Shown here one piece after another: positions 27,943 through 45,429 of a stretch of 64,000 bases of DNA (position 1 is the stretch's first letter; the number at the start of each line of letters is the position of its first letter). The DNA lies in contig OY969695.1 in NCBI GenBank assembly GCA_963701965.1, positions 2,816,001 through 2,880,000 of the forward strand. The letters are read 5' to 3'. The position numbers and the translations under genes were made by a program. Below the pieces are notes generated by a model. The model ran no database searches. It saw only the letters and a list, made by a program, of their open reading frames with translations, and was not told the DNA's origin. The DNA comes from an uncultured Gemmatimonadales bacterium (GTDB lineage Bacteria; Gemmatimonadota; Gemmatimonadetes; Gemmatimonadales; Gemmatimonadaceae).

Positions 27943-28383
27943 TTATCGCGTGATCGTGAAACTCGCGGTCTCGGCGATCACGGGATTCAGGAGCGTGACA
28001 ACCACGCGGGCGGGACCGGGCGTCGCGCCCAGCGTCACCACGACGAAGGCGGAGCCGGACCCGTCGGTGGAGTCGACGACCGAGCAGGACGGAGCGGTGC
28101 CATCGAGACGGGAGACCAGCGCCGTGCAATTGCCGGCCGCCAGCGGATGGTGCACCAGCGACGTGTCGGCCGTGGGCGCGAACAGGATCCCGCAATGGTC
28201 CGGCTCCCGCGTCCCCTCGAGCAGGATGACGAGCCCCTGGGGCAGCGTCGCGTTCGCGGTATCGCTTTGGAGGTTACCGGACGCGATGATGAGGCGGGAC
28301 CCGCCGGGTTGCGTACTAGTGTTTCCGCAGCCCGCCGCTCCGAACAGGAACCCGATGAGCGATAGTCGCGCCGTGTGCCGCAT
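27943..28383 (-). CDS. Hypothetical lipoprotein; truncated paralog (N-terminal Ig-like domain only) of the two upstream genes
   Basis: Lipobox GAAGC. IASGNLQSDT, DSTDGSG, LGATPGPARVVV and ETASFTI align by eye with the N-termini of both upstream paralogs. Confidence 0.7.
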   Translation of the reverse strand: MRHTARLSLIGFLFGAAGCGNTSTQPGGSRLIIASGNLQSDTANATLPQGLVILLEGTREPDHCGILFAPTADTSLVHHPLAAGNCTALVSRLDGTAPSCSVVDSTDGSGSAFVVVTLGATPGPARVVVTLLNPVIAETASFTITR

Positions 28384-29854
28384 CGCGTCCCAATTTAGCC
28401 GCCGCGGCGCTGGACGTGGGCTGCCAGCTGGGTGACTCGAGATTGCTGGTGTACAGCAGAGGCACCACTTCGCTAGTGGCGACATTGATCAGATCAATGT
28501 GGCCCGTCGACGAGTTGAAGGCGACGAGCCACTGGCCGTCCGGCGACCAGTCGAATCCCGCCAGGTAAAATGAGGCCCCCGCGAGGATCCTGCTGCCCGT
28601 CCCATCGGAGTGCGCGATGCCAATGTTGCCCGCGCAGGCGATTCCGTTGATATAGGCGATCTGATCCCCGGTCGGGGACCACGACGGCGACCACGCCGGA
28701 ATCGAGGTGCTCGTCACCGCTCCGGTGCTCGTCGCGAGGATCCGAAGGACGCGGGAAGAATCGGCGACGTAGGCGACATGCGAGCCGTCGGGTGACGGCG
28801 TCGGATACAGGTCCTCGTCCGGCAGCTGGTTGGGCAAGGAATCATCGTTGCTGCCGTCAGGCGCGACGCGCCAGAGCGACCAGTGTCCCGTGTCTTTCGC
28901 GTAGTAGATCCATGAGCCATCGCGTGAATACTGCGGCCACTGATCGATCGCACCGGGGCTGTTTTCGACCACGTGCGGATGGTTGCTGAGGTCGACCGTG
29001 GTCAACTGCGTGCTGCCCCCGGAACATCCACCCACGGGTTGCGAGAATACCACGCTCGTGCCCGAGGGTGCCCAACGCACGACGCCCACGCCTTGATCCG
29101 GCGTCGCGATCGTCTTCATGCCCGAGCCGTCGAGGTTGAACGTGATGATCCTGGTCAAATCCGTCGCCACGAGCGCGCCGTGTGGGACCGCGGACACATG
29201 GACCGTATCGACCGCTTTGCCCGCGGAGGCGGTAACGGCGATCACGCCGAAGCCCTTGGCGGTCAGCGTCGTTCCCGTGATCGTTCCCGGACCGGATGCG
29301 ATGCCGAACCTCACGACGTCAGTTCTGGCGTTGCCAAACGTGTCGAAGGCCTTGGCTTGCAGGGTGAGGGACGCGTCACCGAAAATCGTGGTGTCTCGGG
29401 GTGACACTCTCACCTGCGCCGCTTTGCCGGGCGTCACCGTGAATGTCGCGGTATCGACGTATCCCAGTTGGGGGACCCGCACCTCGATGCGGGCAACGCC
29501 TGCCGTGGCTCCGAGCACGACCTTGACCGCTGCCTGTCCCAACGAATCGGTGGAGTCGGCAATGAACGGGGCCGGGCCACCAGAGCCAATGGTCTCGACG
29601 TAAGCCTGCTCCCCACCGACGCCGCTGTCGACCGGGAAAGTCACGAATTGCACGACGTCGTGCGCAACCGGTTTGTGCAATGCCGTGATCCGGACCACCA
29701 AGGCCTGGGTGAACGCGCCGCCGACCGTGTCGGATTGTTGGTTGCCCGCGACGAAAACAATGCCCGATCCTGACGACGCGTGAGGCGCCGTGCCCGATCC
29801 ACAGGCCGCCGTGAGGAGGAGGGTCGCCGCGGAGACGGTGCGCTTCAGTGCCAT
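28316..29854 (-). CDS. Lipoprotein with Ig-like domains and TolB-like (PD40) beta-propeller
   Basis: Lipobox LTAAC, VAGNQQSDT and repeated WAPSG/YSRDG/PSPDG/WSPTG/WSPDG motifs. Confidence 0.85.
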   Translation of the reverse strand: MALKRTVSAATLLLTAACGSGTAPHASSGSGIVFVAGNQQSDTVGGAFTQALVVRITALHKPVAHDVVQFVTFPVDSGVGGEQAYVETIGSGGPAPFIADSTDSLGQAAVKVVLGATAGVARIEVRVPQLGYVDTATFTVTPGKAAQVRVSPRDTTIFGDASLTLQAKAFDTFGNARTDVVRFGIASGPGTITGTTLTAKGFGVIAVTASAGKAVDTVHVSAVPHGALVATDLTRIITFNLDGSGMKTIATPDQGVGVVRWAPSGTSVVFSQPVGGCSGGSTQLTTVDLSNHPHVVENSPGAIDQWPQYSRDGSWIYYAKDTGHWSLWRVAPDGSNDDSLPNQLPDEDLYPTPSPDGSHVAYVADSSRVLRILATSTGAVTSTSIPAWSPSWSPTGDQIAYINGIACAGNIGIAHSDGTGSRILAGASFYLAGFDWSPDGQWLVAFNSSTGHIDLINVATSEVVPLLYTSNLESPSWQPTSSAAAAKLGRDAAHGATIAHRVPVRSGGLRKH

Positions 29855-31287
29855 GTTGGAGAACCGATTTTGCCCGTGTACGCCAGCGGGAGGATCTCAG
29901 CGGTCGACACGCTGATGAGATCGAGGCGATTCGTTACGGCGTTCCGGGCGATGATGAACTGACCATCCGGCGACCAGTCGAACTGCGCGCCGTAGATGGA
30001 TGTCGGCGTCAGCACCGTCTGGCCGGAGCCGTCCGTATGCACGATACCGATATGGAAGGCGTCGGATGCGTAGGCGATGAGATCGGACTTGGGCGACCAT
30101 TGCGCCGCTTCCGCATTCACGCCGATCTCGAAGTCGGTTTGCGACGCCAGGGTGAGGATATGAATGTGGTTGCCGCCCGCCGCCACGTAGGAGAGCTGCT
30201 GACCGTTCGGCGAGGGACTCGGGAAGGTGAAGCCGTTTGGCAAGGACGGGAACGGCTGCACGGCCGCGTCGCCGGTGCTATTGGGATGCACTTGCCACAG
30301 CGCGTTGCTCTTCCAGTAGTAGATGAGAGAGCCGTCCCGACGATAGGCGGGCCAGGCGTCGATCTGCGACGCGAGGGCCTTGTCCAACACCGACACCGTC
30401 CCATCGAGGGTGGCGCTCGCCAGTTGATTCGAGCCGCCATCCAGTCCGCCCGGTACTTGATCGAATACGACGCTGGTGCCGGACGGCGCCCACTTGACCG
30501 TACCGGCCAATGTTGGCGTGATAATCCGGTACCCGGAACCATCGAGATTGAACATCGCGATGCCGCCGCTGTCGTCGACGGCGCCGGCGATCAAACCCTT
30601 CGGGACTACCGAAACGAATGACGTGTCACGGAACGTCCCACTGGCGCTCGCGATCGAGACACGACCGACACCGGTGGCCGTGACCGTGCTTCCGGAGACG
30701 CTGGCCGGGCCCGATATGATCGAGAAGGTGACCGGATCCGATCGCGCGTTGCCGAATCGATCCGTCGCCGCGGCGTGAAGGATCGCCTGTCCGCCTATGA
30801 AGAGCGCCGTGTCGGCTGGGGTGACGGTGATGGCCGCGGCGTTGCCGGCCTTCACCGTGAAGGTCGCGGTGTCGGCGTAGCCGAACGCGGGTACAGTAAC
30901 CTCGACTCGGGCTCTCCCTGTCCGAAATCCGAGGAAGATCGAGGCGTAGGCCTTCCCCTGGGCGTCCGTGGTGTCGACTAGGACGCTCTCCACCAGTGGC
31001 GACAGGAGCGACCCGACGTATGCCTCGTAGGCCGGGCCAATGACGCCGGGCGGAGCAGTGTCGAGGAGAATGCTGCGGAACTCGACGATTTGACCCGCCG
31101 CCGACTGCCCGTCGTGCGGCGCGATCTGAACGATCAAGGCGCGAGCGAGGTCGGCTTGGACGGTGTCGGTTTGTCTGTTCCCGGCAATGAAGCCTACGCC
31201 GCTCGCGCGGGGAGCAGTACTGCCATCGCCGCCGCACGCGATGCCGCCAAGGGCTAGCGAGAGACCCACAAACGGTGCGAAACGCAA
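29845..31287 (-). CDS. Lipoprotein with Ig-like domains and TolB-like beta-propeller (paralog)
   Basis: Lipobox GIAC, IAGNRQTDT and WAPSG/PSPNG/WSPKS/WSPDG repeats. TTG start at 31287 chosen for its upstream GGAG. Confidence 0.85.
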   Translation of the reverse strand: MRFAPFVGLSLALGGIACGGDGSTAPRASGVGFIAGNRQTDTVQADLARALIVQIAPHDGQSAAGQIVEFRSILLDTAPPGVIGPAYEAYVGSLLSPLVESVLVDTTDAQGKAYASIFLGFRTGRARVEVTVPAFGYADTATFTVKAGNAAAITVTPADTALFIGGQAILHAAATDRFGNARSDPVTFSIISGPASVSGSTVTATGVGRVSIASASGTFRDTSFVSVVPKGLIAGAVDDSGGIAMFNLDGSGYRIITPTLAGTVKWAPSGTSVVFDQVPGGLDGGSNQLASATLDGTVSVLDKALASQIDAWPAYRRDGSLIYYWKSNALWQVHPNSTGDAAVQPFPSLPNGFTFPSPSPNGQQLSYVAAGGNHIHILTLASQTDFEIGVNAEAAQWSPKSDLIAYASDAFHIGIVHTDGSGQTVLTPTSIYGAQFDWSPDGQFIIARNAVTNRLDLISVSTAEILPLAYTGKIGSPTWH

Positions 31288-31427
31288 GCGCGAACGCTCC
31301 AATAAAGAAAAACGGGCCCAACAATGGGCCCGCAAACATACGCTTTACCGGATGCGGGCGCGACCATTCGCGCCCGTGCAATCAGATGTTTGGTCTATTA
31401 TTTACAATTCAGTCGCCCTAGAGACCA

Positions 31428-31814
31428 TTAGGCAACCGGGGCATCCTTGAGCCGTTGGTTCAACACACGGCGCATCCGCTGCAGCGTCTTCGGATCATCG
31501 CGCACGTCCTCGACCACGTGGGCGAGGAACATAGCGCCGGACCCGCGGAACATCTTGTGCTTGAGATACCGAATGCTCGACTGCGCCGCCACCTCGCGGC
31601 TGACGCCGGGATGAAAGCGATGCGCCTTTCCCTCGACCGTGTGGGACAAGTAGCCCTTCGCCTCGAGCACGCGTAGCACGGTCAACACCGTGGTGTACGC
31701 CAGACGGTCGCTCAGCCGCACCTGAACCTCGGCGGCCGTCGACGGTCCGTGCTCCCAGAGCACGTTCATGAGATCCAACTCGCGGTCGGTAAACACTACC
31801 TCAGCCAGCTCCAT
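31428..31814 (-). CDS. BlaI/MecI/CopY family transcriptional repressor
   Basis: FTDRELDLMNVLWEHG, LAYTTVLTVLRVLEAKGY and KMFRGS. GAGGTG RBS before MELAEV. Confidence 0.92.
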   Translation of the reverse strand: MELAEVVFTDRELDLMNVLWEHGPSTAAEVQVRLSDRLAYTTVLTVLRVLEAKGYLSHTVEGKAHRFHPGVSREVAAQSSIRYLKHKMFRGSGAMFLAHVVEDVRDDPKTLQRMRRVLNQRLKDAPVA

Positions 31815-31928
31815 ATCACCTCTCGCCGTCCATACGTGCCGGACAGCCGTCAAGTTTCACGTCTTTTTCTTTGACGCCGAACGCCAGCAAATGGTTTGCA
31901 GGCTGCATACCCCCGGACGCACGAAAGG

Positions 31929-31976: not shown

Positions 31977-32948
31977 CTATGCGACGCGGTCGCGGGGGGA
32001 CTTGCCAGAGAAGAAAAGCTCCAGGTTGGCGAGCGCGCGCTCGCCCATCGCGATGCGGGTGTCCACGGTCGCGCTCCCCAGATGGGGGAGCAGCACGACA
32101 TTGTCGAGCGCGAGGAGTGCAGGCGCGATCGCGGGCTCTTTCTCGTATACGTCCAATCCCGCGCCAGCAATGCGCCGCGCCGCCAACGCCTCGGCCAACG
32201 CCGCCTCATCAATGACGTCACCGCGCGCCGTATTGATCAAAAACGCGTGCGGCGGCATGAGACGTAACGTCTCGGCATTGATCATGTGACGGGTCTCCGG
32301 CGTCGCCGGCGCGTGCAGGGACACGAAGTCGCTTTCCCGCAGCACATCGTCCAGCGACGCCCGGGGCTCGGCGCCCAGCGCCTTCGCCTCGCCAATGGGG
32401 ATCGGTGGGTCGAAATAGATGACGCGCATGCCGAATCCATCGTGCGCACGCTTGGCGACCGCGCGCCCGATCCGCCCCAGACCGATGATCCCCAGGGTCT
32501 TGCCGCTCACCCGCGTCCCCAACATCTGCGTCGGGCCCCATCCGGTCCATCCTTCCGAACGCACCAGCCGCTCTCCCTCGGCCAGCCGCCGCGCCGCCAT
32601 CAACAAGAGGGCGATCGCCAGATCCGCGGTGTCATCGGTGAGCACATCGGGCGTGTTGGTCACCACGACCTCGTGCCGCTTGGCGGCAACGACGTCGATG
32701 TTGTTGAACCCGACCCCGAAGTTGGCCACGATCCGCGCCCGGCGCCCGGCCGTGCCCAGTACCTCGTCGGTGATCTTGTCGGTCACCGTAGGCAGCAAGG
32801 CGTCGGCGCCGCGCATCGCGTCAATGAGCTGCGCCGTCGTCAGTGGCGTGTCGCTCGTGTTGACGCGGGCGTCAAACATCGCTTTGGCGTGCTGCTCCAC
32901 GGCCGCGGGCAACCGCCGGGTGATGACGACCGTCGGCCGCGCGCTCAT
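31977..32948 (-). CDS. hpr: D-glycerate dehydrogenase / hydroxypyruvate(glyoxylate) reductase
   Basis: GVGFNNID, VTNTPDVL, GLGRIG, INTARGDVIDE, AGLDVYEKEP and LPHLGSAT. The real start is MSARPTVV (ATGA overlap); the longer ORF is a frame artefact. Confidence 0.9.
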   Translation of the reverse strand: MSARPTVVITRRLPAAVEQHAKAMFDARVNTSDTPLTTAQLIDAMRGADALLPTVTDKITDEVLGTAGRRARIVANFGVGFNNIDVVAAKRHEVVVTNTPDVLTDDTADLAIALLLMAARRLAEGERLVRSEGWTGWGPTQMLGTRVSGKTLGIIGLGRIGRAVAKRAHDGFGMRVIYFDPPIPIGEAKALGAEPRASLDDVLRESDFVSLHAPATPETRHMINAETLRLMPPHAFLINTARGDVIDEAALAEALAARRIAGAGLDVYEKEPAIAPALLALDNVVLLPHLGSATVDTRIAMGERALANLELFFSGKSPRDRVA

Positions 32949-33826
32949 GAGAGGACCCTCGCCATGGTGGCGCCCAGCTCCGACGGACTGGGCGCGACCT
33001 GGAGCCCCGAGGCGCGCATGATCTCGGCCTTCTCGGCCGCACTGTCGCCGAACGCCGAAATGATCGCGCCGGCGTGCCCCATGCGCCGGCCCGTCGGCGC
33101 CGAGAGTCCCGCGACGTAGCCGACGACAGGCTTCGTCATGTTGTGCCGCACCCACTGCGCGGCTTCCGCTTCCTGCGGGCCGCCAATCTCGCCGATGAGC
33201 AACACTGCGTCTGTCTCCGTGTCGCGCTCGAACAGCTGGAGGATGTCGAGAAATGAGGAACCGTTGATCGGGTCGCCGCCGATGCCCACGCTGGTGCTGA
33301 CCCCAATGCCGAGCGCCGCCATCTGCGACGCCGCTTCGTACCCCAGGGTGCCCGAACGCGAGACAATGCCAACGCGACCTGCGCGATAAATATGCGGCGG
33401 CATGATGCCGATGAAAGCCTTGCCCGGGCTGATCACCCCGGCGCAATTGGGTCCGATCAAGGTCGAACGGCGCTCGCTCGGATAGCGCCGCAAGTACCGC
33501 TTCACCCGCATCATGTCCTGGGCCGGCACGCCGTCGGTGATGGCGACGATCAACCGGATGCCGGCGTCGGCCGCTTCCATGATGGCGTCGGCCGTGAACG
33601 GCCCCGGCACGAAGATTCCGGTGGCCGAGGCGCCCGTCGCGTGGACCGCGGCCTTCACGGTGTTGAACACCGGCAAGCCCAAGTGGGTGGCGCCGCCCTT
33701 GCCGGGCGTCACTCCGCCCACGAGTCGCGTCCCGTAGGCGATCGCCTCCCGGGCGTGAAAGGTGGCCTTGTCCCCCGTGAAGCCCTGGAAAATGATCGGG
33801 GTCGTCTGGTCGATGAGGATGCTCAT
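32945..33826 (-). CDS. mtkB: Malate--CoA ligase alpha subunit (SucD family)
   Basis: MSILID...[45 protein letters not shown] and GRRMGHAGA. The TDGxPAQDM variant and gene context favour MtkB over SucD. Confidence 0.85.
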
Positions 33827-35004
33827 ACCTCGGCACCCGCGAGCATCTGCAATGCACAGACGGCCTTGGCGGCGCCGTCCGCCAACGTGTCGGCGGTCGT
33901 GATCGAAAGGCCGCTCTGCTTGAGGATCCGGCGGCCTTCCTCCACGTTCGTCCCGGCGAGCCGGGCGATGATGGGCGCCGTGATCGACATGTCGCGGGCC
34001 GCTTGCACCACGCCCTGCGCGATCCAATCGCACCGGTTGATGCCGGCGAAAATGTTCACGAGCACGACTTTCACCCGGGGGTCCGACAACACCAGGCGAA
34101 AAGCCGTGGCCACGCGCTCCGGCGAGGCGCCGCCGCCCACGTCCAGGAAATTGGCCGGCTCGGCGCCGGCCAATTTGATCATGTCCATGGTCGCCATGGC
34201 CAGGCCCGCGCCGTTCACGATGCATCCGATCTCACCGGTCAAGCCGACGTAGTTGAGGCCATGCTTGGACGCCTCGGCCTCCCGGGGATCCTCTTCCGTA
34301 TAGTCGCGCAACTCACGCACGTTGGGCCGCCGGAACAGCGCGTTGTCGTCGAACTGCATCTTGGCGTCGAGCGCCAATACGCGCCCATCCTGTGTGACAG
34401 CCAACGGGTTGATTTCCACCATAGTGGCGTCGAGGTCCCGAAAGGCGCGGTAGGCGCCGAGGATCGCCCGCGTCGCCTCGGGCACTTGCGCGGCATCGAG
34501 CCCCAAGCCGAAGCACAGCTCCCGCGCCTGGAACGACTGCATCCCCACGGCCGGCTCAATGACCTCGCGCACCAGCGTGTCGGGCCGCTGCGCGGCGATG
34601 TCTTCGATCTCCATGCCGCCTTCGGCGGTCGCCAGCACGCACACCCGTTCGGCGCGGCGGTCGAGGACCAGGCCCACGTAGAGCTCGCGGGCGATGGGCA
34701 CCGCGGCCTCGATGTAGAGCCGCTGGACGAGCTTGCCCTGCGGGCCCGTCTGCTTGGTCACCAGCACGCGCCCGAGCAAGTCGGCCGCCGCGGCGTGGAC
34801 ATCGTGCTCCGAGGCGCAGATCCGGACGCCGCCCGCCTGCCCGCGGCCGCCGCTATGAATCTGGGCCTTGATCACCCACCGCGCGCCGCCGATCTCGCGC
34901 GCGCAGTACACGGCCTGGTCCGGCGTGTAGGCGACGCTGCCCCGCGGCACCGGCACCCCGAAGTTCGCCAGCAGCTCCTTGGCCTGGTACTCATGGATGT
35001 CCAT
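33823..35004 (-). CDS. mtkA: Malate--CoA ligase beta subunit (SucC family)
   Basis: [66 protein letters not shown] and [11 protein letters not shown], which is MtkA-like rather than SucC's FGGIVRCD. Confidence 0.88.
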
Positions 35005-35956
35005 TGCGGGCTCCAGCGTCTATCGCGTCCATCGTGTGCACGACGTTGCGGGCCATCCGTGCCGAAGCGGCGTCGATCATCTTGCCGTCCAGCTGCGCCG
35101 CGCCGCGGCCGCCGGCGGCAGCTTCGTCGATGGCGACCAGGATCCGGCGCGCGCGATCGACCTCGGGCGTGGTGGGCGTGAACACCTCGTTGGCCAAGGC
35201 GATCTGCGAGGGATGGATCGCCCATTTCCCCTCGACACCGAGGGCCGCGGCCCGGCGCGCCGCGGCCCGGTAACCGTCGGGGTCCTGGAAATCGCCGAAC
35301 GGCCCGTCGATGGGCCGCAACCCGTACGCGCGGCACGCGACGATCATCCGGGTGAGCGAGGCGTGCCACTGGTCGCCGGGATAGTCGGGGTTGAGCCCTC
35401 CGATGCTCACCGTGCGGGCGCGCAGGCTGGCCGCGTAGTCGGCGACGCCAAAGTGCATGGCCTCGAGACGACGGCTGGATTGCGCGATCGCCTCGACGTT
35501 CGCCATCCCCAGGGCGGTCTCGATCAGGACTTCGATGCCGACGCGGCGCGGCAAGTCCGTGCGGCCGTGGGCGTCCTCGATCTGCGTGAGCAACGCGTCG
35601 ACCATGTAGACATCAGACGCGGTGCCGACTTTCGGGATGAGCACCGTGTCGAGGCGGTCGCCAGCCGCCTCCACGACGTCGACGACATCGCGATACATGT
35701 AGTGCGTATCGAGCCCATTGATGCGCAGCGAGATCGTCTTGCCCCGCCCCCGCCAGTCATGATCGCGAAGGCCCGCGATGGCCTGCGCCCGGGCGGCCAC
35801 TTTCTCGTTCGGCGAGACCGCATCCTCGAGATCGAGAAAGACGTAGTCGGCATCGCCGGCCAACGCTTTGGCGAACAGCTCCGGCCGCGAGGCCGGCACC
35901 GCCAGCTCGCTCCGCTGCAGGCGCTGACGGGTGGGCTCGGGGCGCCAGAAGCTCAT
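34991..35956 (-). CDS. mcl: Malyl-CoA lyase (L-malyl-CoA/beta-methylmalyl-CoA lyase, CitE/HpcH family)
   Basis: [69 protein letters not shown] and [11 protein letters not shown]. Confidence 0.92.
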
Positions 35957-37161
35957 ACTCCTGCCGCGGCGGGAGCGCGCTTCGCCGTCTTCGCCGCGCA
36001 CTTGCCGCGCCAAAATTCGGCGGCGGCGGCCACGCCCGATCCCGGCGTCACGTCGATCCCGACGTCGCGCATGGCCATCTCGGCGCCGGCGATGCCGCTG
36101 ATCAACATCAACTCGTTGAGATCGCCGAGGTGTCCGATGCGAAAGAGCTTGCCGGCGACCTCGGAGAGCCCGGCCCCGAGCGCCAGGTTGTAGCGCTTGA
36201 ACGCGACATCAATGATCTCCGCGGCATTGACGCCCGGCGGAGTCATCACGGCGCTCACGGTGTCGGAGTACCACTTGGGATCTCTTGCACAAAGTTGCAG
36301 TCCCCATGCCTGTACGGCGCGCCGCGTGCCCTCGGCCAGCCAATGGTGCCGGGCGTACACGTTGTCGAGACCCTCCTCGAACAGCATGTCGAGCGATTCC
36401 CGCAGCCCGTAGAGCAGGGGGATCGACGGCGTGTACGGGAAGTATCCCGTGGCGTTGGCCTTGATCTGATCCCCGAAATCGAAGAACACCCGCGCGCACT
36501 TGGCGCTCGACTGGAGGGCGAGCGCTCTCTGGCTCATGCACACCAGTCCAAGTCCGGCCGGCATCATGAAACCCTTCTGGGATCCCGTGATCGCGGCGTC
36601 GACGCCCCAGGCATCCATCTCGAACGGCAGGCTGCCGATGGCACTCACGCCGTCGACATAGAGCAGGGCGGGATGCCGCGCGGCGTCGATGGCTTCGCGG
36701 ACGGCGGCCACGTCGGTGGTGACGCCGGTCGCCGTCTCGTTATGCACGACGAGTACGCCCGTGATCTCGTGCGCCGTGTCGGCGCGGAGCGCCGCCGCGA
36801 TGCGGTCGGCCGGCGCGCCCTCGCCCCACGGCACCTGCATCACGTCGACCCTGAGGCCCAATCGCTGCGCGCAGTCGATGAAGAGATGACTGAACTGGCC
36901 GTAGCGGGGGGCCAGGACCCGATCGCCGGGCGAGCGTGTGTTGGCGAGCGCCGCCTCCCACATCCCCGTCCCCGTCGCCGGGAACACGAAGGCCTGTCCC
37001 GTCTCGGTGCGGAAGACGCGCTTCAGGTCCTCGAAGATCCCCTTGGGCAGCGCCGGAAACGACGATGACCGATGATCCTCCTGCGCGCGATGCATCGCGC
37101 GCAGGATGCGATCGGGGACATTGGTGGGACCGGGCACGAAAAGGTGATTCCGACCGGGCAT
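35953..37161 (-). CDS. sgaA: Serine--glyoxylate aminotransferase (class V PLP aminotransferase)
   Basis: PGRNHLFVPGPTN, EDHRS, VHNETATGV, DGVS, GSQKG (PLP Lys), GYFPYTP and FRIGHLGDLNE. The N-terminus matches methylotroph SgaA as I recall it. Confidence 0.9.
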   Translation of the reverse strand: MPGRNHLFVPGPTNVPDRILRAMHRAQEDHRSSSFPALPKGIFEDLKRVFRTETGQAFVFPATGTGMWEAALANTRSPGDRVLAPRYGQFSHLFIDCAQRLGLRVDVMQVPWGEGAPADRIAAALRADTAHEITGVLVVHNETATGVTTDVAAVREAIDAARHPALLYVDGVSAIGSLPFEMDAWGVDAAITGSQKGFMMPAGLGLVCMSQRALALQSSAKCARVFFDFGDQIKANATGYFPYTPSIPLLYGLRESLDMLFEEGLDNVYARHHWLAEGTRRAVQAWGLQLCARDPKWYSDTVSAVMTPPGVNAAEIIDVAFKRYNLALGAGLSEVAGKLFRIGHLGDLNELMLISGIAGAEMAMRDVGIDVTPGSGVAAAAEFWRGKCAAKTAKRAPAAAGV

Positions 37162-37247
37162 GAGACGGCATCCTCGACAGAAATGATATGGCGGGCGGGC
37201 TCGACTTGGTGCCCACTTACCGGCACGTCGCGTGCCGAAAAGCGACA

Positions 37248-37285
37248 GAAAGGGCCCCCCCGCTGAATGGCGAAGGAGCCCTCTC
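37248..37285 (-). terminator. 16-bp G-U-rich hairpin between the small Cys/His gene and sgaA
   Basis: Minus strand GAGAGGGCUCCUUCGC-CAUUCA-GCGGGGGGGCCCUUUC pairs fully only with G-U wobbles, so it is strand-specific. It is followed by UGUCGCUUUU. Confidence 0.7.
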
Positions 37286-43370: not shown

Positions 43371-43898
43371 GTGGACGACGCCGACCGCCTCTTTCGCGAG
43401 TATCACGCGCCGCTCGTGCGGTACTTGACGAGGCGGCTCGGCGACCGGGATTGGGCCGAGGAGGTCGCGCAGGAGACCTTTCTGCGGGCGCTGCGGCAGC
43501 CGGTGTTGGTGAGTGAGCGGGCGTGGTTGTTTGCGGTGGCCACGAACTTGGTCCGCGACGCCGCGCGGAAAGACGCGCGGCGGAGGAGGTGGTTGCAGGT
43601 GCTGGCCGCCGAGGAAAGGGAGCGGGAGGAGACCGAGCCCATCTCGGCGCTGGAGCAGGCGCAGGAGGCCGCGCTCGCGCGACGGGCCGTCGACGCGCTG
43701 GCGGAGCGGGACCGGTTGGCGTTGCTCATGCGGGAGGAAGGGCTGAGCTATGAGGAGATCGCTGAGGCTCTGTCGTTGTCCGTTGGATCCATCGGCACGA
43801 CGTTGGCGCGGGCGCGGCGGCGGCTGGCCGAGAGTTACGAGGCACTGCAGGGCGCGGCGCGCGTCCGTGAGGTGGGACGGAGGGGCCATGCCACGTAG
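43371..43898 (+). CDS. ECF RNA polymerase sigma factor
   Basis: LFREYHAPLVRYL, AEEVAQETFLR, AWLFAVATNL and GLSYEEIAEAL..SVGSIGTTLARAR. Confidence 0.93.
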   Translation: MDDADRLFREYHAPLVRYLTRRLGDRDWAEEVAQETFLRALRQPVLVSERAWLFAVATNLVRDAARKDARRRRWLQVLAAEEREREETEPISALEQAQEAALARRAVDALAERDRLALLMREEGLSYEEIAEALSLSVGSIGTTLARARRRLAESYEALQGAARVREVGRRGHAT

Positions 43899-45429
43899 TG
43901 GAGAGCGGCACATCGAGGAAGGCACGCTGCACGCGTGGATCGATGGGGCGTTGGTGCCCATCGAGGCGGCGCGCGTCGAGGCGCACATCGAGCGGTGCGA
44001 CGCGTGTCAGGAAGCCGCGGCCGAGGCGCGCGGCCTCGCGGCCGCGGCCTCGCGCATCCTCACGGCGCTCAATGCGGTCCCATCGGGGATTGTACCCGCT
44101 CCGTCGGACGAGCCCGGCTCTACTTTCGCGGCGCGGAGCCGGCGCCGGCCATTTATCTCCTGGTCGCTCCGCGTTGCGGCGACGCTGCTCGTCGTCGCGG
44201 CCGGCACGCTCTCCGTCGTCCGGGTCGCGCAGCAGGATTCCCGGCCTCCGGCGACTGTGGCGCCTGCGGCGCCAGCAGCGCCGCTGCCGTCAGCCCCGGC
44301 GCCGTCGGGGGCTGCCCCCTCAGGGACTGCGCCTTCGGGGGCTGCGCCGTCGGTAGCTGCGCCGTCAGGGGCTGCGCCGTCGGGGGCTGCGCCGTCGGGG
44401 GCTGCGCCGTCGGGGGCTGCGCCGTCGGGGGCTGCGCCGTCGGGGGCTGCGCCGTCAGGGGCTGCGCCGTCAGGGGCTGCGCCGTCGGGGGCTGCGTCGT
44501 CGGGGGCTGCGCCGTCGGGGGCTGCGCCGTCGGCCACTGCGCGATCGGGGGCGCCGGCGTTTGTGCCTCCGCCCTCGGCGCCGCCGCGGTCAGCCGCGCC
44601 GGCACCGCAGTTAGCGGCGAAGGCGGCGGAGCCGCCGCCGGTGGGCGCGGCCCGCGACTCGGTCGTTCAGGCACCAGCCGCGGCGAGCGACATGGCGGTG
44701 GCCCAGCGCGAGCAGCAGTTGCAAAATGACAATCGTGCTGCCCCCGCCAGGCCGGCTGGCATAGCGGGAGCCCTTACGCGACCGCTGGCGCAGGCCGCGG
44801 CTCCCAGTATGGCGGCCGCGGCGCCGATCGTCAGCGGCCGGGTAACGTCGGCGACGACCGGCGCGCCGGTCGCGGATGCGGTTGTCTCGTTGGCCAATGC
44901 CCAGGGGAGCGCGCAGACGTCGGCCGACGGGCACTACTCGATCGCGGTGCCCGACACGGTGTCCAAGGGCCACATCGCCACGCTCGTGATCCGCCGTCTC
45001 GGCTTTCAGCCGCAGCGACAGGATGTCGCGGTGGCGCCGGGTGTGACGGCGCACGACGTCGCATTGGTCGAGAACCGGCAGACGCTCATGCAGATGGTCG
45101 TCGCGGGCACGGCCAGCGCAACGCCTGTCGGCTGCTATCAGACGAAGAGCCCATTCTTCCCGTCCCGTTTCACACTAGACACCGCACCCGGCGACACACT
45201 TCCCCTGCGCCTCTCTCCCCCCGACGCACGCCGGTTCCCCATCGCGTACTGGCTCCGCGGCGATTCGGGCCGCGTGGTCTTGGTCGTATCACCGGATTCG
45301 ACGAGCGAGCCCATTCGCATCAAAGCGGCCGTGACCGCCGATAGCCTGAGCGGCGCGACAATCGCGCCGGATGACGAGCTGACTCAGCCCGCGCCGTTCA
45401 CGGCGACGCGCTGCAAGCCAGCGCGCTGA
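43888..45429 (+). CDS. Zinc-finger (zf-HC2) anti-sigma factor with TM, VNTR linker and carboxypeptidase-regulatory-like domain
   Basis: HIEEGTLHAWIDG...HIERCDAC (HxxxCxxC), a TM helix and VSGRVTSATTGAPV...TSADGHYSI...RRLGF. It overlaps the sigma stop and has a GGAGG RBS. Confidence 0.88.
   Translation: MPRSGERHIEEGTLHAWIDGALVPIEAARVEAHIERCDACQEAAAEARGLAAAASRILTALNAVPSGIVPAPSDEPGSTFAARSRRRPFISWSLRVAATLLVVAAGTLSVVRVAQQDSRPPATVAPAAPAAPLPSAPAPSGAAPSGTAPSGAAPSVAAPSGAAPSGAAPSGAAPSGAAPSGAAPSGAAPSGAAPSGAAPSGAASSGAAPSGAAPSATARSGAPAFVPPPSAPPRSAAPAPQLAAKAAEPPPVGAARDSVVQAPAAASDMAVAQREQQLQNDNRAAPARPAGIAGALTRPLAQAAAPSMAAAAPIVSGRVTSATTGAPVADAVVSLANAQGSAQTSADGHYSIAVPDTVSKGHIATLVIRRLGFQPQRQDVAVAPGVTAHDVALVENRQTLMQMVVAGTASATPVGCYQTKSPFFPSRFTLDTAPGDTLPLRLSPPDARRFPIAYWLRGDSGRVVLVVSPDSTSEPIRIKAAVTADSLSGATIAPDDELTQPAPFTATRCKPAR
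44308..44532 (+). repeat. In-frame tandem repeat, 15 copies of 15 bp (GGGGCTGCGCCGTCG; GAAPS)
   Basis: Directly visible, with minor variants (GTAPS, VAAPS, GAASS) and a degenerate 16th unit extending to 44547. Confidence 0.97.

What the first reader, a model, noticed from the sequence alone, without database searches (positions are those of the whole stretch)
31977..37161. Compact serine-cycle operon (sgaA-mcl-mtkA-mtkB-hpr) in a probable Gemmatimonadota genome
Seen: five co-oriented genes with overlapping stop/start junctions, a TATCAT -10 box (37183-37188) and GAGGA RBS in front, and a hairpin behind. Known: SgaA, Hpr, MtkAB and Mcl are signature enzymes of the serine cycle for C1 assimilation, best studied in alphaproteobacterial methylotrophs, where the cluster order is sga-hpr-mtdA-fch-mtkA-mtkB-ppc-mcl. 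Here the order differs, mtdA/fch/ppc/glyA/gck are absent locally, and the reductase looks GyaR/GhrB-like. Inference: either C1 (methanol/formate) assimilation in a non-proteobacterial host, or a stand-alone glyoxylate/oxalate/glycolate module running Mcl+Mtk towards malate. I recall C1 metabolism being proposed for this phylum from metagenomes, so novelty needs checking.
Basis: partly seen in the sequence, partly recalled or inferred. Interest (0 to 1): 0.8.

Follow-up and report, generated by a model that had tools for sequence, protein, structure and literature searches.

The report
Serine-cycle operon of methanol-using Gemmatimonadota
Five overlapping genes encode the core enzymes of the serine cycle in a Gemmatimonadota genome that also carries methanol-oxidation genes, so they likely build biomass from methanol; both the pathway in this phylum and the gene order are already in print, so this is a sound but mostly ordinary find.

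Summary
In detail: five intact, overlapping minus-strand genes, sga-mcl-mtkA-mtkB-hpr. The ligase passes the malate--CoA ligase cut-off and the genome has a separate sucCD. The aminotransferase groups with SgaA, not BhcA. The rest of the pathway lies elsewhere in the single-contig genome: glyA, gck, eno, ppc, mdh, ftfL, folD, intact xoxF, pqq, the H4MPT genes, fdh and aceA; no ccr. In 400 genomes of the phylum the mcl orthologue and xoxF orthologue coincide in 69, and mch occurs in 72 of 76 carriers versus 1 of 28 controls. Best reading: a serine cycle for methanol, with isocitrate lyase regenerating glyoxylate (untested at the bench). Novelty is low: the pathway was reported for Gemmatimonadetes in 2016 (PMC5103831), the same gene order is described in Aminobacter (PMC13199381), and this scan has noted the operon in other genomes. 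The promoter and terminator calls are weak. One new lead, outside the window: 49 of the 54 carriers lacking canonical AceA encode a divergent isocitrate-lyase-like protein, never found together with AceA.

The parts
35953..37161 (-). sga: serine-glyoxylate aminotransferase-type enzyme, 402 aa
   Evidence: Best solved relative is plant serine--glyoxylate aminotransferase 6pk1, E 1e-142; BhcA model 586.6 bits, below its 650 cut-off; clade with Methylobacterium and Paraburkholderia SgaA 95/91, BhcA apart 100/100; SQKG motif with K196
34991..35956 (-). mcl: malyl-CoA lyase, 321 aa
   Evidence: Best solved relative 5ugr malyl-CoA/beta-methylmalyl-CoA lyase, E 4e-116; 60-71% identical to Mcl of proteobacterial serine-cycle clusters
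33823..35004 (-). mtkA: malate--CoA ligase beta subunit, 393 aa
   Evidence: NF010647 malate--CoA ligase beta 676.9 bits, cut-off 604; groups with MtkA, away from SucC; the genome's own SucC is only 46% identical
32945..33826 (-). mtkB: malate--CoA ligase alpha subunit, 293 aa
   Evidence: 72-74% identical to MtkB of Methylobacterium and Paraburkholderia clusters, 58% to E. coli SucD, 54% to the genome's own SucD; GHAGA motif. NCBIfam names it SucD; no malate-ligase alpha model appeared among the hits
31977..32948 (-). hpr: GyaR-like hydroxypyruvate/glyoxylate reductase, 323 aa
   Evidence: 51-54% identical to the reductases of the Aminobacter, Paracoccus and Ruegeria clusters, 35% to Methylobacterium HprA; same clade as the former, SH-aLRT 99; aligns full length with Hyphomicrobium-type D-glycerate dehydrogenase 1gdh, sharing the YFD acidic residue
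37171..37175 (-). GAGGA ribosome-binding site, 9 nt before the sga ATG
   Evidence: Sequence; GAGG/GGAG recurs before sga in most of 25 relatives
37183..37188 (-). TATCAT, possible -10 hexamer (weak)
   Evidence: Present; no matching -35, not called by the scan; not conserved
37221..37237 (.). 7-3-7 palindrome upstream of sga, possible operator (speculative)
   Evidence: Sequence; this exact pattern occurs once in the genome; not seen in relatives' upstream regions by eye
37248..37285 (-). terminator-like hairpin closing the upstream gene
   Evidence: 16 pairs, called by the scan; z = -3.15; a similar hairpin precedes sga in the closest relative L008
31929..31950 (-). 8-bp hairpin behind hpr (weak terminator candidate)
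   Evidence: Folds (z -0.7 to -1.8); no U-tract, not called

Best explanation
The five genes encode the dedicated core of a serine cycle that likely assimilates methanol-derived carbon, with glyoxylate likely regenerated by isocitrate lyase because no crotonyl-CoA carboxylase/reductase was found. Inferred route: lanthanide-type XoxF oxidises methanol; the H4MPT genes take formaldehyde to formate; FtfL and FolD load formate on tetrahydrofolate; GlyA makes serine. Sga turns serine plus glyoxylate into hydroxypyruvate plus glycine; Hpr reduces hydroxypyruvate to glycerate; Gck, Eno, Ppc and Mdh lead to malate; MtkAB activates malate and Mcl splits malyl-CoA into glyoxylate and acetyl-CoA. AceA supplies the second glyoxylate from acetyl-CoA. 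Shown: gene identities, operon structure, presence of the partner genes, co-occurrence across the phylum. Inferred: enzyme activities, direction of flux, growth on methanol, co-transcription.
For: Enzyme assignments. Separate sucCD at C1:5022247-5024276. Partner genes in the genome: ppc, glyA, gck, ftfL, folD, aceA (26, 24, 30), mdh and NAD-dependent fdh over their cut-offs, pqqC, intact xoxF C1:646550-648364 with WDYDG, and an island at C1:2651838-2691592 with xoxF/J/G, fae, mtd, fhcBADC and mch. In relatives gck and ppc flank the operon, and this genome's lone ppc groups with those operon copies, SH-aLRT 100. Phylum sample of 400: mcl 76, xoxF 77, both 69, neither 316; in the window's family the same 10 of 94 genomes have both. 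mch 72 of 76 carriers versus 1 of 28 controls; ftfL 72 of 76; an isocitrate lyase of either type in 71 of 76 versus 65 of 324 non-carriers; ccr over cut-off in 0 of 76 and not in this genome. The same-order operon in Aminobacter NyZ550 is induced by dimethylamine (PMC13199381, section 9).
Against: No enzyme, expression or growth data for this organism or, in the papers I saw, any Gemmatimonadota isolate. The genome also has aceB and glcDEF-like genes, and glcF-like genes occur in 67 of 76 carriers (no control), so a glycolate role is not excluded. This genome's gck has an 84-residue repeat insertion that relatives lack and its ppc scores 741 bits against a cut-off of 815 (79) on a longer branch; two same-genus-group loci (L163, L164) keep only mcl-hpr. 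These may signal relaxed use in this lineage. The xoxF copy inside the island is split by a frameshift. Seven of 76 carriers lacked a xoxF orthologue. Carriers fall in 15 genera of two families, so the counts are not independent and I ran no phylogenetic test.
Confidence: 0.8

Rival explanations
1. Stand-alone glyoxylate/glycolate module: Mcl and MtkAB run towards malate as a malate-synthase substitute, and Sga and Hpr dispose of glyoxylate as glycine or glycolate, independent of C1 metabolism.
For: glcDEF-like genes in the genome and glcF-like genes in 67 of 76 carriers; the reductase's best solved relatives are glyoxylate reductases; mcl-mtkAB without sga/hpr occurs in SAR11 and other loci.
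Against: The genome already has malate synthase A over its cut-off. No oxc, frc, gcl, hyi or glxK orthologue and no bhc cluster were found with E. coli and Pseudosulfitobacter queries. gck and ppc, which such a module would not need, flank the operon in relatives. The operon tracks xoxF and mch.
Confidence: 0.08
2. Auxiliary or decaying serine cycle: methanol is used mainly for energy, and the operon serves co-assimilation of C1 units during growth on multi-carbon substrates, or is being lost in this lineage.
For: gck and ppc have left the cluster here and in L001, L008, L160-L162; repeat insertion in gck; loci L163 and L164 keep only mcl-hpr; no SecR-type regulator found (best hits 28-29%); aceB could compete for glyoxylate.
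Against: All five genes are intact, overlap, and have genome-typical GC3 of 0.85-0.90; identities to close relatives are 70-93%; split clusters are normal in working methylotrophs (Aminobacter type II); aceA and aceB lie 2.4 Mb apart, which would allow separate control.
Confidence: 0.1
3. Misnamed housekeeping genes: a second succinyl-CoA synthetase, a BhcA-type aspartate-glyoxylate aminotransferase and a generic 2-hydroxyacid dehydrogenase.
For: mtkA and mtkB also pass the SucC/SucD cut-offs, and BhcA is the top NCBIfam model for the aminotransferase.
Against: Higher score on the malate--CoA ligase model, separate sucCD, trees; bhcB/C/D homologues are only 29-35% identical and scattered.
Confidence: 0.02

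Closest known systems
Aminobacter sp. [quoted passage not shown]
   Same: Same five genes in the same order, ppc and glyA elsewhere; same GyaR-like reductase clade; 54-71% identity.
   Different: Host phylum; no gck in the operon; no SecR orthologue or SecR motif upstream; linked to xoxF and H4MPT, while the N-methylglutamate genes were not found.
Serine pathway of soil Gemmatimonadetes MAGs (Butterfield et al. 2016, PMC5103831)
   Same: Same phylum and same set: xoxF, H4MPT, THF-to-serine route, malate-CoA ligase and malyl-CoA lyase (passages; Fig. S4 text).
   Different: In what I saw the paper lists genes per genome and gives no operon order or phylum-wide counts; its glycerate-kinase route for Gemmatimonadetes differs from the MOFRL-type gck seen beside the operon here.
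Methylobacterium/Methylorubrum type V cluster sga-hprA-mtdA-fch-mtkA-mtkB-ppc-mcl
   Same: Sga, MtkA and Ppc of Gemmatimonadota group with the Methylobacterium bullatum and Paraburkholderia copies (95/91, SH 98, SH 99).
   Different: Order differs; HprA is of the other type (35%); no mtdA-fch in the operon; no ccr here, whereas Methylobacterium regenerates glyoxylate by the ethylmalonyl-CoA pathway (own knowledge).
beta-hydroxyaspartate cycle bhcABCD
   Same: Homologous aminotransferase, 54-55% identical.
   Different: Below the BhcA cut-off, separate clade, no bhcBCD cluster.

Membership tests
Serine cycle (C1 assimilation) | Signature genes sga, hpr, mtkAB, mcl | tested here: met
Serine cycle (C1 assimilation) | glyA, gck, eno, ppc, mdh in the genome | tested here: met
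   glyA and mdh over cut-off; ppc by Pfam with intact motifs but below the NCBIfam cut-off; gck with an insertion; eno recognised from its translation only
Serine cycle (C1 assimilation) | Source of methylene-THF from a C1 substrate | tested here: met
   xoxF, pqqC, fae, mtd, mch, fhcBADC, ftfL, folD
Serine cycle (C1 assimilation) | Glyoxylate regeneration route | tested here: met
   aceA over cut-off; ccr not over cut-off. Citrate synthase and aconitase were not searched
Serine cycle (C1 assimilation) | Enzyme activities, induction and 13C flux on a C1 substrate | not testable with these tools
   Needs assays and labelling
Malate--CoA ligase MtkAB | Beta subunit over the curated malate--CoA ligase cut-off, beside mcl, with a separate sucCD | tested here: met
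   676.9 versus 604 bits; sucCD elsewhere; tree
BhcA / beta-hydroxyaspartate cycle | BhcA cut-off, BhcA clade and linked bhcBCD | tested here: not met
   the AU test of a forced grouping did not finish
SecR-regulated type I/II clusters | Gene order sga-mcl-mtkBA-hpr | tested here: met
SecR-regulated type I/II clusters | secR gene and CCYACCCG motif before sga | tested here: not met
   Best SecR hits 28-29% identity; motif absent from 170 nt upstream
Methylobacterium HprA type | Grouping with HprA of type V clusters | tested here: not met
   35% identity, separate clade (62, 82)
Isocitrate lyase (the divergent protein P0001 of relatives, not in this genome) | Curated ICL cut-off | tested here: not met
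   172 versus 275.9 bits, 179 versus 562 bits
Isocitrate lyase (the divergent protein P0001 of relatives, not in this genome) | Substrate-binding and catalytic residues of ICL1 | tested here: met
   S91, G92, W93, C191, G192, H193, R228, N313, S315, S317, T347, L348 invariant in 5 aligned members (numbering from 112; residue roles from passages of PMC9780415, 111); the two lysines before the cysteine are replaced (RTCGH)
Isocitrate lyase (the divergent protein P0001 of relatives, not in this genome) | Cleavage of isocitrate | not testable with these tools
   Needs an assay; 50 of 50 longer homologues carry a malate-synthase domain (110)

The most novel reading that the evidence does not exclude
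About a fifth of Gemmatimonadota are methanol-assimilating methylotrophs that run one conserved package (xoxF, H4MPT, this operon) with an isocitrate-lyase-type serine cycle and no ethylmalonyl-CoA pathway, and about two thirds of them use an uncharacterised compact isocitrate lyase with an RTCGH loop that curated models miss. This would make them a large non-proteobacterial group of serine-cycle methylotrophs whose pathway looks incomplete in standard annotation.
Probability: 0.55. Interest if true: 0.6.

Novelty: new member of a known kind. Interest (0 to 1): 0.33.

Why it matters
Gemmatimonadota are abundant in soil and their XoxF was the most abundant protein in one grassland proteome (PMC5103831). 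Whether they build biomass from methanol or only burn it decides their place in soil carbon budgets. The operon is a usable marker for the assimilating subset (76 of 400 sampled genomes), and its five genes plus the divergent isocitrate lyase can be tested in Methylorubrum and E. coli mutants without a culture. The operon itself adds no new chemistry or architecture.

Tried and rejected
Conserved promoter or operator: none evident in 25 relatives; no motif-discovery run. SecR control: rejected. Oxalate, glyoxylate-carboligase and beta-hydroxyaspartate routes: no orthologues with the queries used; the gcl-like hits are acetolactate synthases by context or family score. N-methylglutamate genes: not found with SAR11 queries. 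RuBisCO, pMMO/AMO, sMMO and Hps: short recalled motifs gave no credible hit; a weak test, so 'not found with these motifs'. Recent transfer: not supported, GC3 matches the genome. AU test of Sga with BhcA: unfinished. The ccr search covered the 76 carriers only, without controls; ftfL and glcF have no controls. Malate synthase in carriers of the divergent isocitrate lyase could not be searched, the genome cap being spent. Rows dropped: 6 weak mcl hits (46-51%) and 32 genomes with only weaker PQQ-dehydrogenase hits, by thresholds set at gaps after seeing the lists; trees were thinned (MtkA 53 of 76 rows, Sga 41 of 51, Hpr 31 of 38, Ppc 30 of 34). Literature: ten searches found no paper on this operon's order in Gemmatimonadota or on the divergent isocitrate lyase; the library lacks most subscription papers.
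Full report
Observation. All four junctions overlap. GAGGA and TATCAT are present, but the scan finds no sigma-70 promoter and TATCAT is absent from the last 70 nt before sga in the 25 relatives compared. The downstream hairpin is weak and lacks a U-tract; a better terminator-like hairpin lies upstream at 37285-37248. GC3 of 0.85-0.90 matches the genome median of 0.86. The host is inferred to be Gemmatimonadota: the nine best Mcl loci are all labelled so.

Gene identities. MtkA scores 676.9 bits on the malate--CoA ligase beta model (cut-off 604), above its SucC scores. The genome has a separate sucC/sucD pair, 46% and 54% identical. In a 53-row tree MtkA sits with Gemmatimonadota, Methylobacterium and Paraburkholderia MtkA (SH-aLRT 98), and the MtkA rows are set apart from three SucC rows (99) (quick tree, long outgroup branches). 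Mcl is closest to the solved malyl-CoA lyase 5ugr. The aminotransferase is below the BhcA cut-off and closest in the PDB to a plant serine--glyoxylate aminotransferase. In a 41-row careful tree it groups with Gemmatimonadota, Methylobacterium and Paraburkholderia Sga (95/91), and six BhcA proteins from bhcABCD clusters form their own side (100/100); the AU test did not finish. Motif names for catalytic residues are recalled.

The rest of the genome (one contig, 5.12 Mb, 95% complete). Found: ppc, glyA, MOFRL-type gck, eno (by translation), mdh, ftfL, folD, aceA, aceB, pqqBCDE, an NAD-dependent formate dehydrogenase over its cut-off and a molybdopterin one below it. An island at C1:2651838-2691592 holds a PQQ dehydrogenase, a split xoxF, xoxJ, a cytochrome c, pab-like and methanofuran/methanopterin synthesis genes, fae, mtd, fhcBADC and mch. 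An intact xoxF lies at C1:646550-648364; its best three PDB hits are XoxF-type enzymes and it has WDYDG, which I recall as the lanthanide-binding signature. Not found with the queries used: ccr over cut-off, oxc, frc, gcl, hyi, glxK (72, 79), a bhc cluster or SecR, N-methylglutamate genes. glcDEF-like genes and gcvPTH are present.

Relatives. Many also carry gck head to head with sga. The window's lineage has neither gck nor ppc in the cluster, but its lone ppc groups with the operon ppc of its family (SH 100), so it looks relocated. Marine gammaproteobacterial loci add ftr, folD and mtd; Aminobacter, Mesorhizobium and some SAR11 loci sit beside N-methylglutamate genes. The neighbours are thus C1 genes again and again.

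Phylum counts (400 genomes besides the window's; thresholds set at gaps after seeing the lists). mcl orthologue 76 (6 weak hits dropped), xoxF orthologue 77 (32 genomes with weaker hits dropped; query was the N-terminal half), both 69, neither 316; in the window's family the same 10 of 94. mch is in 72 of 76 carriers and 1 of 28 hand-picked non-carriers; ftfL in 72 of 76; glcF-like in 67 of 76; the last two lack controls. ccr passes its cut-off in 0 of 76. Carriers belong to 15 genera in two families, so these are not independent events. One genome flagged unpublished (G156) counts only in the denominators.

Glyoxylate regeneration. Canonical AceA is in 84 of 400 genomes, 22 of them carriers. 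Of the other 54 carriers, 49 have a 378-residue ICL-like protein. It occurs in 52 of 400 genomes, all in one family, and in none that has AceA. So 71 of 76 carriers have one or the other, against 65 of 324 non-carriers; the five exceptions are assemblies of 80-340 contigs. The protein is 31-34% identical to the window genome's AceA, falls below curated ICL cut-offs, is closer to ICL than to methylisocitrate lyase structures, keeps the ICL1 ligand-binding residues listed in PMC9780415, and has RTCGH for KKCGH. All 50 longer homologues found carry a malate-synthase domain at 59-63% identity over the shared part, and the few that are named are Elusimicrobia, a lead taken from earlier scan notes and checked here. 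Its activity is inferred. It is not in the window's genome, which has ordinary AceA, and the exclusion may reflect a single replacement in one clade.

Mechanism. Most likely (0.8) the operon is the dedicated core of a serine cycle fed by XoxF, H4MPT and FtfL/FolD, with Mtk and Mcl running from malate to glyoxylate plus acetyl-CoA and AceA closing the balance. Rivals: an auxiliary or decaying cycle (0.1), for which the gck insertion, the dispersal of gck and ppc and the mcl-hpr remnants in L163 and L164 are real hints; a glyoxylate/glycolate module (0.08); misnamed housekeeping genes (0.02).

What is known. Butterfield et al. 2016 (PMC5103831; passages and the text of Fig. S4, whose columns are read from page layout; two supplements not searchable) report xoxF, H4MPT, the THF-serine route, malate-CoA ligase and malyl-CoA lyase in soil Gemmatimonadetes. 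[quoted passage not shown] PMC10875860 (passages) reports XoxF3 systems in Gemmatimonadetes and the serine pathway in most XoxF genomes. PMC8262859 (passages) reports serine cycles with a glyoxylate shunt in one Binatota order. A 2026 preprint (10.64898/2026.02.02.703227; passages, supplements closed) says the proposed Gemmatimonadota methanotroph lacks sga and hprA. Ten searches found nothing on the operon order in this phylum or on the divergent lyase, within a library that omits most subscription papers. This scan has already noted the operon in other Gemmatimonadota genomes.

Verdict. Real and well supported, but a new member of a known kind: interest 0.33. The added value is the phylum-wide coupling to xoxF and H4MPT, the absence of ccr, and a testable divergent isocitrate lyase in relatives.

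Noticed in passing
L146:1501-2637 (-), protein P0001; G216 and 51 other genomes: Divergent 378-aa isocitrate-lyase-like protein with an RTCGH loop, in 52 of 400 genomes of the phylum, never with canonical AceA, 49 of them operon carriers; homologues are fused to malate synthase elsewhere. It sits beside hflX-like and polysaccharide genes, not beside C1 genes.
   Followed up: partly
L091:1474-3045 (+), G000 C1:1912990-1914561: The glycerate kinase gene carries an in-frame insertion of about 84 residues built on a 15-bp tandem repeat, absent from five relatives aligned.
   Followed up: partly
L099:15458-17276 (+), G000 C1:2655458-2657276: The xoxF copy in the methylotrophy island is split by a single frameshift; relatives are unbroken and a second copy elsewhere (89% identical over the first half) is intact, so a sequencing error is plausible.
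   Followed up: partly
L099-L101, G000 C1:2651838-2691592: A 40-kb methylotrophy island close to dnaA/dnaN, with a second PQQ dehydrogenase, porin-like gene, SoxYZ-like and SoxH-like quinoprotein partners.
   Followed up: partly
L163:7744-9694 and L164:8602-10508: Two genomes of genus group g12 keep only mcl-hpr at this locus, without sga and mtkAB.
   Followed up: no
L015 and L066, upstream of sga: Two Gemmatimonadota loci have a CCTACCC stretch before sga that resembles the SecR site; only L015 matches the pattern exactly and no SecR homologue was found in those loci.
   Followed up: partly
L020, L037, L055, L062: SAR11 loci place mcl-mtkAB next to N-methylglutamate pathway genes, while a second SAR11 group has it inside a his/ftsK housekeeping region.
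   Followed up: no
window 44007-44560: A low-complexity run of 15-bp repeats (PSGAA units) inside the ORF 43750-45429.
   Followed up: no
window 28316-31335 (-): Two tandem paralogous TolB-like beta-propeller genes behind a BlaI/CopY-type repressor gene at 31428-31820.
   Followed up: no
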